In this document: positions 1 through 499 of the stretch, one piece after another | How the letters are laid out: each line of letters begins with the position of its first letter | Position numbering within the stretch: the first letter of the stretch is position 1 | Sequence record: EF517072.1 | Strand: one strand, 5' to 3' | Source: a phage | Length of the DNA: 499 bases | Notes under the pieces: model-generated | Seen by the model: only the letters and a program-made list of their open reading frames with translations | What the model was told of the DNA's origin: nothing | The model's database searches: none | Made by a program: the position numbers and the translations under genes

Positions 1-2
1 TT

Positions 3-239
3 CAGGCAATCTTAGAGAAAGATATGCTGCATCTATGTAAGCAGGTCGGCTCAGGTGCGATTGTCCCCAATGGTAAACAGAAGGAAATGATTGTCCAGTT
101 CCTGACACACGGTATGGAAGGATTGATGACATTCGTAGTACGTACATCATTTCGTGAGGCCATTAAGGACATGCACGAAGAGTATGCAGATAAGGACTCT
201 TTCAAACAATCTCCTGCAACAGTACAAGAGGTGTTCTGA
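3..239 (+). CDS. 5.5: Gene 5.5 protein (H-NS-binding host-takeover protein), 5'-truncated by the window edge; C-terminal ~78 codons plus TGA stop
   Basis: Frame 3 is open from the window edge (codons from nt 3: Q-A-I-L-E-K-D, then MLHLCKQVGSGAIVPNGKQKEMIVQFLTHGMEGLMTFVVRTSFREAIKDMHEEYADKDSFKQSPATVQEVF) to TGA at 237-239. The ATG at 24 is therefore internal, not the start. The stop overlaps the ATG of the next gene (TGATG), and the position immediately upstream of the recognisable gene 5.7 and 5.9 matches T7 gene order. Inferred total length of about 99 aa fits T7 gp5.5 if roughly 20 codons lie upstream of the window. Assignment is by synteny and partial sequence recollection. Confidence 0.8.
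   Translation, partial: QAILEKDMLHLCKQVGSGAIVPNGKQKEMIVQFLTHGMEGLMTFVVRTSFREAIKDMHEEYADKDSFKQSPATVQEVF
228..233 (+). promoter_or_regulatory. Ribosome-binding site (Shine-Dalgarno GAGGTG) for gene 5.7, embedded in the 3' end of gene 5.5
   Basis: AAGAGGTG at 226-233 is complementary to the 16S rRNA 3' end, with a 5-nt spacer (ttctg) before ATG 239. Confidence 0.7.
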
Positions 240-448
240 TGTCTGACTACCTGAAAGTGCTGCAAGCAATCAAAAGTTGCCCTAAGACTTTCCAGTCCAA
301 CTATGTACGGAACAATGCGAGCCTCGTAGCGGAGGCCGCTTCCCGTGGTCACATCTCGTGTCTGACTACTAGTGGACGTAACGGTGGCGCTTGGGAAATC
401 ACTGCTTCCGGTACTCGTTTTCTGAAACGAATGGGAGGATGTGTCTAA
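239..448 (+). CDS. 5.7: Gene 5.7 protein, 69 aa; small inhibitor of host sigma-S-containing RNA polymerase
   Basis: Complete ORF from ATG 239 to TAA 446-448, translating to MSDYLKVLQAIKSCPKTFQSNYVRNNASLVAEAASRGHISCLTTSGRNGGAWEITASGTRFLKRMGGCV, which I recognise as T7 gp5.7. A Shine-Dalgarno GAGGTG at 228-233 lies 5 nt upstream of the ATG. The start overlaps the upstream stop and the stop overlaps the downstream start by one nucleotide each. Confidence 0.9.
   Translation: MSDYLKVLQAIKSCPKTFQSNYVRNNASLVAEAASRGHISCLTTSGRNGGAWEITASGTRFLKRMGGCV
433..439 (+). promoter_or_regulatory. Ribosome-binding site (Shine-Dalgarno GGGAGGA) for gene 5.9, embedded in the 3' end of gene 5.7
   Basis: GGGAGGA at 433-439 with an 8-nt spacer (tgtgtcta) before ATG 448. 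The motif also encodes the Gly-Gly of the gp5.7 C-terminus (MGGCV). Confidence 0.75.
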
Positions 449-499
449 TGTCTCGTGACCTTGTAACTATTCCACGCGATGTGTGGAACGATATACAGA
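448..499 (+). CDS. 5.9: Gene 5.9 protein (RecBCD nuclease inhibitor, DNA mimic), 3'-truncated by the window edge; first 17 codons only
   Basis: ATG at 448 followed by an open frame to the window end, translating to MSRDLVTIPRDVWNDIQ, which matches the N-terminus of T7 gp5.9 as I recall it. A strong Shine-Dalgarno GGGAGGA at 433-439 lies 8 nt upstream. The start overlaps the gene 5.7 stop (TAATG). Confidence 0.85.
   Translation, partial: MSRDLVTIPRDVWNDIQ

What the first reader, a model, noticed from the sequence alone, without database searches (positions are those of the whole stretch)
194..241. Possible 5.5-5.7 translational fusion: -1 frame open for the last 45 nt of gene 5.5
Gene 5.7 lies in the -1 frame relative to gene 5.5. 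Reading the 5.7 frame backwards from ATG 239, it is open back to a TAA at 191-193, so a -1 shift anywhere in 194-238 would yield a 5.5-5.7 fusion. My recollection is that T7 annotation lists a 5.5-5.7 fusion protein, but this is unverified here. I could not find a canonical X-XXY-YYZ slippery heptamer in the gene 5.5 frame within this interval, so the mechanism, if real, is not obvious from the sequence.
Basis: partly seen in the sequence, partly recalled or inferred. Interest (0 to 1): 0.5.

Follow-up and report, generated by a model that had tools for sequence, protein, structure and literature searches.

The report
T7 gene 5.5/5.7 stop-start overlap
This is the one-base stop/start overlap between phage T7 genes 5.5 and 5.7: a "possible 5.5-5.7 fusion" has been annotated here since 1983, but the sequence and its relatives look like ordinary translational coupling, not a programmed frameshift site.

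Summary
The window is a T7 variant (99.0% identical) covering the 3' part of gene 5.5, all of gene 5.7 and the start of 5.9. Gene 5.7 (ATG 239) is in the -1 frame of 5.5 (TGA 237-239), and that frame is open from TAA 191-193, so 194-238 gives 15 sense codons. Its recollection is also correct: V01146 carries "possible gene 5.5-5.7". By exact lookup, the deposited 169-aa protein (CAA24415.1/NP_041984.1/UniProt P03787) joins at the last sense codon, TTC 234-236 (...REVF|LMSDY...).

Nothing marks a programmed frameshift:
- There is no X_XXY_YYZ heptamer. The only Z_ZZN is T_TTC (200-203), found only in T7 itself among the close T7-like relatives.
- No downstream RNA structure and no homopolymer run were found.
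- The open -1 stretch ranges from 1 to 31 codons in 86 related loci.
- No natural in-frame fusion was found.
- 16 T7 gene pairs share the same "fusable" geometry (median 17 open codons).

What is conserved is a Shine-Dalgarno sequence 5 nt before the ATG plus the TGATG/ATGA overlap, which automatically places 5.7 in the -1 frame. One paper states that the fusion is not expressed.

Verdict: already known and ordinary. A low-level fusion cannot be excluded.

The parts
1..239 (+). 3' part of gene 5.5 (H-NS-binding protein, PF11247), frame p mod 3 = 0, stop TGA 237-239. The true start lies 60 nt upstream of the window.
   Evidence: Pfam PF11247 at E = 4.6e-69 for the T7 protein.
191..193 (+). TAA in the gene 5.7 frame; 5' limit of the open -1 stretch. 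It arises from the 5.5 codons GAT AAG (Asp-Lys).
   Evidence: TAA or TAG is present at this place in most T7-like relatives but absent in L009 and L018.
194..238 (+). 15 sense codons open in the 5.7 frame upstream of its ATG. This is the interval in which a -1 shift would fuse 5.5 to 5.7.
   Evidence: Not unusual: P = 0.18, and mid-rank among 16 T7 gene pairs. Not conserved in length: 1-31 codons in relatives.
200..203 (+). T_TTC, the only Z_ZZN tetramer (the minimal -1 slip motif) in the interval. It shares the A-site U_UUC with the proven T7 gene 10 site G_GUU_UUC.
   Evidence: Requirement for Z_ZZN and the G_GU case in T7 gene 10: PMC5009743. Within the T7-like group only T7 has it.
226..227 (+). 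AA in the window versus GG in T7. This turns gp5.5 codon CGG (Arg96, nearly invariant) into CAA (Gln) and trims the 5.7 Shine-Dalgarno from GGGAGGTG to GAGGTG.
   Evidence: Anti-SD duplex energy -11.6 kcal/mol (T7) versus -7.1 (window). The variant is absent from 86 loci, IMG/VR and INPHARED.
228..233 (+). Shine-Dalgarno sequence GAGGTG of gene 5.7, 5 nt upstream of the ATG, embedded in the last codons of gene 5.5.
   Evidence: The invariant block in T7-like relatives is GTACGGGAGGTG (222-233). A purine-rich SD-like element lies 5-9 nt before the start in all 32 aligned junctions.
234..236 (+). TTC, the last sense codon of gene 5.5. In the deposited T7 fusion protein, C236 is read twice (TTC then CTG-ATG).
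   Evidence: Exact-sequence lookup of all 14 distinct T7 fusion proteins: only this junction is in the databases.
237..241 (+). TGATG: stop of 5.5 and start of 5.7 overlapping by one base.
   Evidence: The identical 15-mer GGAGGTGTTCTGATG also forms the T7 1.6/1.7 junction.
239..448 (+). Gene 5.7 (69 aa; host RNA polymerase inhibitor). Its protein sequence in the window is identical to T7's.
   Evidence: PDB 5LGM is the 69-aa protein alone. Function from PMC5569994.
431..450 (+). Second junction of the same design: SD GGGAGGA, then TAATG (5.7 stop and 5.9 start overlap by 1 nt). The 5.9 frame is open for 22 codons upstream.

Best explanation
Positions 194-241 are the 3' end of T7 gene 5.5 running into a translationally coupled stop/start overlap (TGATG). 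Shown: gene 5.7 has its own strong ribosome-binding site, GGAGGTG in T7 and GAGGTG in this variant, 5 nt before ATG 239, built into the codons for the conserved gp5.5 C-terminus (...ATVREVF). Inferred from the established behaviour of overlapping stop/start junctions: gp5.7 is made as a free 69-aa protein, either by ribosomes that terminate at TGA 237-239 and restart at the overlapping ATG, or by fresh initiation at that site. A 1-nt (TGATG/TAATG) or 4-nt (ATGA/GTGA) overlap necessarily places the downstream gene in the -1 frame. The 15 open codons upstream are incidental. The interval contains no selected, programmed frameshift signal. The 'possible gene 5.5-5.7' annotation of 1983 has been carried into RefSeq, UniProt and PDB names, and I infer that its junction was placed by convention at the last sense codon. 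Any fusion protein actually made would be a low-level by-product of spontaneous slippage on a very highly expressed gene.
For: (1) The -1 relation occurs in 85 of 86 related loci, through 1-nt or 4-nt overlaps. The open stretch varies from 1 to 31 codons and is only 1-3 codons in many lineages. (2) There is no X_XXY_YYZ heptamer and no homopolymer run of 5 or more; the only Z_ZZN is T_TTC at 200-203. Within the T7-like group only T7 has it. (3) Across 73 unique junctions, 46 have no Z_ZZN in the open window and none has a heptamer. The count is 28 observed against about 56 expected, so slip motifs are not enriched. (4) No stimulatory RNA was found. Folds downstream of either candidate site are no better than shuffles (z = +0.29 and -0.72), and RNAalifold on 32 diverged junctions predicts 0 pairs. 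(5) Nucleotide invariance is confined to the SD block at 222-233, while 194-215 varies freely in both frames. (6) T7's strongest anti-SD match in positions 150-470 is at 225-233 (-11.6 kcal/mol), 5 nt before the ATG. (7) L013 has an unrelated upstream gene and only 3 open codons, yet keeps GAGGTG-N5-ATG within TGATG. (8) The same 15-mer junction joins T7 genes 1.6 and 1.7, with 21 open -1 codons, and no fusion is annotated there. (9) Sixteen T7 gene pairs are equally 'fusable'. (10) No natural single-ORF 5.5-5.7 protein appeared in the large protein database. (11) PMC5569994 states the fusion is not expressed. The solved structure and biochemistry use the 69-aa protein. The Atkins et al. 2016 frameshifting review covers T7 gene 10 but not 5.5 in the part held, 300,000 of 429,602 characters.
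Against: Dunn and Studier annotated the fusion as 'possible', presumably for a reason such as a gel band. I could not read that paper. gp5.5 is very abundant, so even about 0.1-1% spontaneous slippage at T_TTC could give a visible product. That tetramer shares its A-site half with the proven gene 10 site G_GUU_UUC. Tal et al. found that frameshift mutations in gene 5.5 phenocopy gene 5.7 mutations in escape from dGTPase defence. That result fits either a fusion or translational coupling. The 'not expressed' statement cites a helicase-polymerase paper that looks like a mis-citation. Translational coupling itself is inferred from the anatomy and was not measured here.
Confidence: 0.77

Rival explanations
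1. A genuine, functionally used -1 ribosomal frameshift produces a 5.5-5.7 fusion in T7. It would occur either by slippage of tRNA-Phe on T_TTC (200-203; product ...KDSF|QTISCNST(G/R)GVLMSDY...) or by a 'shifty stop' event at G_TTC_TGA (233-239; product ...EVF|LMSDY..., as deposited). The fusion would join the H-NS/tRNA-binding module to the RNA-polymerase-binding module.
For: V01146 annotates 'possible gene 5.5-5.7', and RefSeq and UniProt keep it. Later papers describe it as a -1 frameshift product, but only by citation. T_TTC meets the minimal Z_ZZN requirement and matches the A-site half of the gene 10 site. Gene 5.5 frameshift mutants behave like 5.7 mutants. N-terminally tagged Gp5.7 was used in biochemical assays, so an N-terminal extension need not inactivate it.
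Against: There is no heptamer, no stimulatory structure and no upstream SD at the 10-14 nt spacing known to stimulate -1 shifting; the AAGGA at 192-196 is only 3 nt from T_TTC. Within the T7-like group T_TTC occurs only in T7. At G_TTC, re-pairing to GUU mismatches in the first codon position (inference from anticodon GAA). The open frame shrinks to 1-3 codons in many relatives. No natural fused gene was found. A published statement says the fusion is not expressed. The identical junction at 1.6/1.7 has no annotated fusion.
Confidence: 0.15
2. The larger product arises from transcriptional slippage by T7 or host RNA polymerase, which would delete one base from a fraction of the mRNAs within 194-238.
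For: None specific. It is the generic alternative route to a trans-frame protein (PMC5009743).
Against: Slippage needs long homopolymer runs. No run of 5 or more exists in 150-260, and the longest runs in the interval are TTT and AAA.
Confidence: 0.01
3. An N-terminally extended gp5.7 is made by initiation at an upstream start codon in the 5.7 frame, with no frameshift involved.
For: The 5.7 frame is open for 15 codons upstream of the ATG.
Against: Those 15 codons contain no ATG, GTG or TTG. The only near-cognates are ATC (209) and CTG (236, adjacent to the ATG), and the SD is positioned for ATG 239.
Confidence: 0.02

Closest known systems
Translationally coupled overlapping stop/start junctions of bacterial and phage operons (UGAUG/UAAUG 1-nt and AUGA/GUGA 4-nt overlaps)
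   Same: TGATG overlap. SD inside the 3' end of the upstream gene, 5 nt from the ATG. The same design recurs at 5.7/5.9 in this window and at six other 1-nt overlaps in T7 (0.3/0.4, 1.6/1.7, 3/3.5, 5.7/5.9, 6.7/7, 7.7/8). It is conserved in 85 of 86 related loci.
   Different: Nothing structural differs. Dependence of 5.7 translation on 5.5 translation was not measured here. It is only suggested by the gene 5.5 frameshift escape mutants of Tal et al..
T7 gene 10A/10B programmed -1 frameshift (G_GUU_UUC, with a distant 3' element)
   Same: Same phage, same direction of shift, occurs near the end of an abundant protein's gene, and shares the A-site tetramer U_UUC (C_UCU_UUC here).
   Different: Gene 10B is experimentally established and is annotated without 'possible'. 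Its P-site codon can partly re-pair (G_GU). Here the P-site UCU->CUC re-pairing is poor, the motif is not conserved in relatives, and no stimulator was found.
dnaX-type -1 frameshifting in E. coli (A_AAA_AAG, with an upstream SD at 10-14 nt and a downstream hairpin)
   Same: An SD-like sequence lies inside a coding region near a possible shift site.
   Different: There is no slippery heptamer. The SD lies downstream of T_TTC, and immediately next to the terminal TTC (0 nt), not 10-14 nt upstream of it. No hairpin was found. From established knowledge, such spacing does not favour -1 shifting.

Membership tests
Programmed -1 ribosomal frameshift site | Slippery heptamer X_XXY_YYZ (or a relaxed form) in the upstream frame | tested here: not met
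   A scan of 150-238 in both the window and T7 finds no heptamer. It finds only the A-site-only C_TCT_TTC and the tetramer T_TTC at 200-203.
Programmed -1 ribosomal frameshift site | Stimulatory element: RNA hairpin or pseudoknot 5-9 nt downstream, or an SD 10-14 nt upstream | tested here: not met
   Fold z-scores are +0.29 (237-330) and -0.72 (204-290). RNAalifold gives 0 pairs on 32 relatives. The strong SD at 225-233 lies downstream of T_TTC and abuts TTC 234-236. Pseudoknots were not modelled.
Programmed -1 ribosomal frameshift site | Conservation of the slip site and of the open trans-frame among relatives | tested here: not met
   Within the T7-like group T_TTC occurs only in T7. Open length ranges from 1 to 31 codons. 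46 of 73 unique junctions have no Z_ZZN in the open window.
Programmed -1 ribosomal frameshift site | Trans-frame protein demonstrated experimentally | not testable with these tools
   The annotation says 'possible'. PMC5569994 says the fusion is not expressed. Other papers only repeat the annotation. The primary papers are not held.
Translationally coupled stop/start overlap | Stop codon of the upstream gene overlaps the start codon of the downstream gene | tested here: met
   TGA 237-239 and ATG 239-241. 1-nt or 4-nt overlaps occur in nearly all of the 86 loci.
Translationally coupled stop/start overlap | Shine-Dalgarno sequence within the upstream coding sequence at functional spacing | tested here: met
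   GAGGTG at 228-233, 5 nt before the ATG. Duplex energy with the anti-SD is -7.1 kcal/mol (window) and -11.6 (T7). It is conserved across relatives.
Translationally coupled stop/start overlap | Downstream translation depends on upstream translation | not testable with these tools
   There is only indirect support: gene 5.5 frameshift mutations phenocopy gene 5.7 mutations (Tal et al.).
Transcriptional slippage site | Homopolymer run, typically 6-9 or more A or T | tested here: not met
   No run of 5 or more in 150-260.

The most novel reading that the evidence does not exclude
T7 really does make a small amount of an 18.7-kDa gp5.5-gp5.7 fusion by a non-canonical -1 event. That event would be either single-tRNA slippage on U_UUC at 200-203 without any stimulator, or a shift at the terminal UUC next to the UGA. 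The fusion would have a function of its own, for example tethering the RNA-polymerase inhibitor to H-NS/tRNA complexes. This would be a T7-specific innovation absent from its relatives.
Probability: 0.08. Interest if true: 0.5.

Novelty: already known. Interest (0 to 1): 0.15.

Why it matters
There is little to gain biologically. The junction is a textbook coupled overlap, and the putative fusion has been in the T7 record since 1983. The practical value is for curation. A product marked 'possible' has become the official UniProt name (P03787, 'Fusion protein 5.5/5.7'). From there it has spread to the PDB entry for the 69-aa gp5.7 (5LGM) and onto ordinary gene 5.7 ORFs in many phage genomes, where it misleads readers. 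If the fusion were shown to be real, it would be a stimulator-less -1 shift in a classic model phage, and it would link two host-takeover functions. A single tagged-phage western blot or a targeted mass-spectrometry run would settle it.

Tried and rejected
1. I tried to read the primary sources: Zhu et al. 2012 (PMC3361414), Zhang et al. 2011 (PMC3111293) and Liu & Richardson 1993 (PMC45959). None is held. Dunn & Studier 1983 is a subscription-journal paper (JMB); I did not try to fetch it.
2. I searched the Tal et al. supplements for the positions of the gene 5.5 frameshift escape mutations. Only unrelated tables are held.
3. Several literature queries for the fusion under other spellings, and for T7 ribosome profiling or proteomics, gave nothing beyond repeats of the annotation.
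4. I looked for a natural in-frame 5.5-5.7 gene as 'Rosetta stone' evidence. The top protein hit, P0016, is a 5.7-5.7 concatenation; P0072 is a frameshifted 5.7-5.9; P0040 is a frameshifted 5.5. The 'fusion protein 5.5/5.7' labels in Klebsiella and Citrobacter phages are name transfers onto separate 210-nt ORFs.
5. I tried to locate the join of the CR8 two-piece CDS by exact lookup. None of the last six -1 junctions is on record.
6. In the single-sequence fold, an SD-sequestering hairpin (229-233 paired with 248-252) could explain coupling. I rejected it as unsupported because z = -0.72 and the alignment fold predicts no pairs.
7. I considered that the six G:C->A:T differences from T7 might identify the source strain. 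No identical sequence exists in INPHARED or IMG/VR.

Full report
WHAT THE WINDOW IS. The 499 bases match phage T7 at 99.0% identity over positions 1-498. They cover the 3' 239 nt of gene 5.5, all of gene 5.7 (239-448) and the start of gene 5.9 (from 448). The window differs from T7 V01146 at six positions, all G:C->A:T transitions: 226, 227, 361, 418, 465 and 499. gp5.7 is unchanged at the protein level. The T7 gene 5.5 protein matches Pfam PF11247 'Bacteriophage T7, gene 5.5' at E = 4.6e-69. gp5.7 corresponds to PDB 5LGM, a 69-residue chain.

CHECK OF THE OBSERVATION.
- Gene 5.5 is read with codon starts at p mod 3 = 0 and ends ...GTG TTC TGA (231-239).
- Gene 5.7 starts at ATG 239-241, with codon starts at p mod 3 = 2, so it is in the -1 frame.
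- Reading that frame backwards gives 15 sense codons (194-238) and then TAA at 191-193.
- Any -1 shift that re-reads base 194, 197 ... or 236 yields a 169-aa protein of 18.7 kDa.
- A formal scan finds no X_XXY_YYZ heptamer in the 5.5 frame. The only slip-prone element is C_TCT_TTC, equivalently the tetramer T_TTC at 200-203. There is no homopolymer run of 5 or more.

IS IT MORE THAN CHANCE? It is not.
- In T7 coding sequences the -1 frame carries a stop every 9.3 codons, so 15 or more open codons are expected 18% of the time.
- Sixteen adjacent T7 gene pairs have a downstream start in the -1 frame whose open extension reaches back into the upstream gene. Their open lengths are 2-49 codons with a median of 17, and 5.5/5.7 sits in the middle at 15.
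- The next junction in this same window, 5.7/5.9 (TAATG at 446-450), has 22 open codons.
- One Z_ZZN tetramer in 15 codons is about what chance gives.

THE ANNOTATION.
- V01146 carries a two-piece CDS 'possible gene 5.5-5.7' (CAA24415.1). It also carries 'possible gene 0.6B' and an unqualified 'gene 10B'.
- AY264774 and the other T7 records listed in the hit table show only separate 5.5, 5.7 and 5.9 products under the match.
- I built all 14 distinct T7 fusion proteins and looked each one up by exact sequence. Only one exists in public databases...ATVREVF|LMSDYLK..., which is CAA24415.1 = NP_041984.1 = UniProt P03787 'Fusion protein 5.5/5.7'.
- The deposited join is therefore at the last sense codon (window TTC 234-236, with C236 read twice).
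- The last codon has no slip motif. Re-pairing of tRNA-Phe from UUC to GUU would mismatch at the first position (my inference from anticodon GAA). The placement therefore looks like a convention, the latest possible point, and not a mapped site.

COMPARATIVE EVIDENCE. I fetched 80 IMG/VR loci encoding gp5.7 relatives at 77-100% identity, plus six GenBank loci, and analysed every junction.
1. In 85 of 86 loci, gene 5.7 is in the -1 frame of the upstream gene, through a 1-nt overlap (TGATG/TAATG) or a 4-nt overlap (ATGA/GTGA). Both overlap types force the -1 relation arithmetically.
2. The open extension is not conserved. It ranges from 1 to 31 codons. It is only 3 codons in a group of loci with the ...GAGGTGAAGTAATG junction, and only 1 codon in L038, L071, L074 and L078.
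3. They read TCC TTC, CTG TTC, TGC TTC, TTG TTC or CTG TTA.
4. Across 73 unique junctions, 46 have no Z_ZZN in their open window and none has a heptamer. The count is 28 observed against about 56 expected, so slip motifs are not enriched.
5. Nucleotide invariance in the T7-like group is confined to GTACGGGAGGTG (222-233). Positions 194-215 change freely in both reading frames, which is not what dual coding predicts.
6. L013 has an unrelated 53-codon upstream ORF and only 3 open codons. It still keeps GAGGTG-N5-ATG inside a TGATG overlap. So gene 5.7 with its ribosome-binding site behaves as a self-contained module.
7. No genome has 5.5 and 5.7 as one continuous ORF. A search of 5.8 billion proteins with the fusion returned only 5.5-like proteins of about 99 aa plus three artefacts.
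8. The 'fusion protein 5.5/5.7' labels in Klebsiella and Citrobacter phages sit on ordinary 210-nt gene 5.7 ORFs. Only CR8 copies the two-piece CDS.

STIMULATORS. RNA downstream of either candidate site folds no better than shuffled sequence: z = +0.29 for 237-330 and -0.72 for 204-290. RNAalifold on 32 diverged junctions predicts no base pairs at all. The strongest anti-Shine-Dalgarno complement anywhere in T7 positions 150-470 is CGGGAGGTG at 225-233 (-11.6 kcal/mol), which ends 5 nt before ATG 239. That is an initiation signal for gene 5.7. It lies downstream of T_TTC and directly abuts the terminal TTC. It is therefore not at the 10-14 nt upstream spacing known to stimulate -1 shifting (established knowledge from dnaX).

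LITERATURE.
- Tabib-Salazar et al. 2017 (PMC5569994) say the 1-nt overlap suggests a fusion 'could exist'. [quoted passage not shown] Their reference 10 is a helicase-polymerase paper and is probably a mis-citation. I could not read the likely sources.
- Tal et al. (bioRxiv 10.1101/2021.04.26.441389) cite Dunn 1983 for the fusion. They report that frameshift mutations in gene 5.5 behave like gene 5.7 mutations in escaping a dGTPase defence. That fits either a fusion or translational coupling.
- Two Wilke/Bull-lab papers only restate the annotation.
- The Atkins et al. 2016 review (PMC5009743) discusses T7 gene 10 (G_GUU_UUC with a distant 3' element). It states that Z_ZZN is the minimal -1 motif. 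It never mentions 5.5 in the part held, which is 300,000 of 429,602 characters.
- No paper I could read shows a gel, blot or peptide for the fusion.

MOST LIKELY MECHANISM (confidence about 0.77).
- Shown: the overlap, the SD and its spacing, the conservation of both across relatives, and the absence of every recognisable frameshift signal.
- Inferred: gp5.7 is made as a free 69-aa protein, by re-initiation of terminating ribosomes or by direct initiation. The -1 relation and the open 45 nt are by-products of the overlap. Any fusion made is spontaneous slippage on a very abundant mRNA.
- Supporting detail: the identical 15-mer GGAGGTGTTCTGATG also joins T7 genes 1.6 and 1.7, with 21 open -1 codons, and gp1.6 also ends ...EVF. 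No fusion is annotated there.

RIVALS.
- A genuine, functional -1 frameshift at T_TTC or at the terminal TTC-TGA: about 0.15.
- Transcriptional slippage: about 0.01, because there is no homopolymer run.
- An N-terminally extended gp5.7 from an upstream start: about 0.02. There is no ATG, GTG or TTG in the 15 codons.

NOVELTY AND SCORE. The fusion hypothesis dates from 1983 and is in the reference annotation, so this is already known. The new result here is negative: comparative and sequence evidence do not support a programmed event. Interest is 0.15. The main value is a curation warning about a 'possible' product that has become an official protein name.

Noticed in passing
window 226-227 (also 361, 418, 465, 499): The window differs from T7 by six substitutions, all G:C->A:T transitions. 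The adjacent pair GG->AA at 226-227 turns the nearly invariant Arg96 of gp5.5 (...ATVREVF) into Gln. It also weakens the gene 5.7 Shine-Dalgarno, with the anti-SD duplex going from -11.6 to -7.1 kcal/mol. Positions 361, 418 and 465 are synonymous. No identical sequence exists in INPHARED, IMG/VR or the 86 loci, so the source may be a mutagenised or evolved T7 line, or an altered sequence.
   Followed up: partly
L087 (T7 V01146) 8154-8168 and 17138-17152; window 227-241: The 15-mer GGAGGTGTTCTGATG occurs exactly twice in T7, at the 1.6/1.7 and 5.5/5.7 junctions. A given 14-mer is expected about 1.5e-4 times by chance. Both upstream proteins end in ...EVF, and similarity stops immediately on either side. 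This looks like a reused or convergent RBS and overlap cassette. The 1.6/1.7 junction has 21 open -1 codons, but no fusion is annotated there.
   Followed up: partly
window 431-450: The 5.7/5.9 junction has the same design as 5.5/5.7: SD GGGAGGA inside gene 5.7, then a TAATG 1-nt overlap. Gene 5.9 is in the -1 frame with 22 open codons upstream, more than at 5.5/5.7. No 5.7-5.9 fusion is annotated in the records examined.
   Followed up: yes
L013 (IMGVR_UViG_3300045988_000519) around 1440-1503: In this T7-like contig, gene 5.7 (99% identical protein) is preceded by an unrelated 53-codon ORF instead of gene 5.5, joined by the same GAGGTG...TGATG design. This is evidence of modular shuffling with a breakpoint at or just upstream of the 5.7 ribosome-binding site.
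   Followed up: partly
window ~210 onward versus 137-209, compared across L007-L021: Among close T7 relatives, gene 5.7 and the last ~30 nt of gene 5.5 are almost identical at the nucleotide level. The rest of gene 5.5 is much more diverged. This suggests a mosaic recombination boundary near window position 210.
   Followed up: no
Databases: UniProt P03787, PDB 5LGM; PQ133622, NC_031066 and others: The name 'Fusion protein 5.5/5.7' has propagated from the T7 'possible' CDS to the PDB entry for the 69-aa gp5.7. It has also spread to separate gene 5.5 and 5.7 ORFs in Klebsiella and Citrobacter phage genomes, and 'HNS binding protein' is often attached to gene 5.7 ORFs. These names are misleading.
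   Followed up: yes
P0016 (UniRef A0A7D5G3X0, Kayfunavirus, 140 aa): This database protein is two tandem copies of a gp5.7 homologue joined head to tail. It is either a real duplication-fusion or an assembly or annotation artefact.
   Followed up: no
PMC5569994, reference 10: The statement that the 5.5/5.7 fusion 'is not expressed' is attributed to Zhang et al. 2011, a helicase-polymerase interaction paper. That paper is also cited there for gp5.5 and H-NS. The intended source is probably Zhu et al. 2012 on gp5.5, so the only published negative evidence currently rests on an apparent mis-citation.
   Followed up: partly
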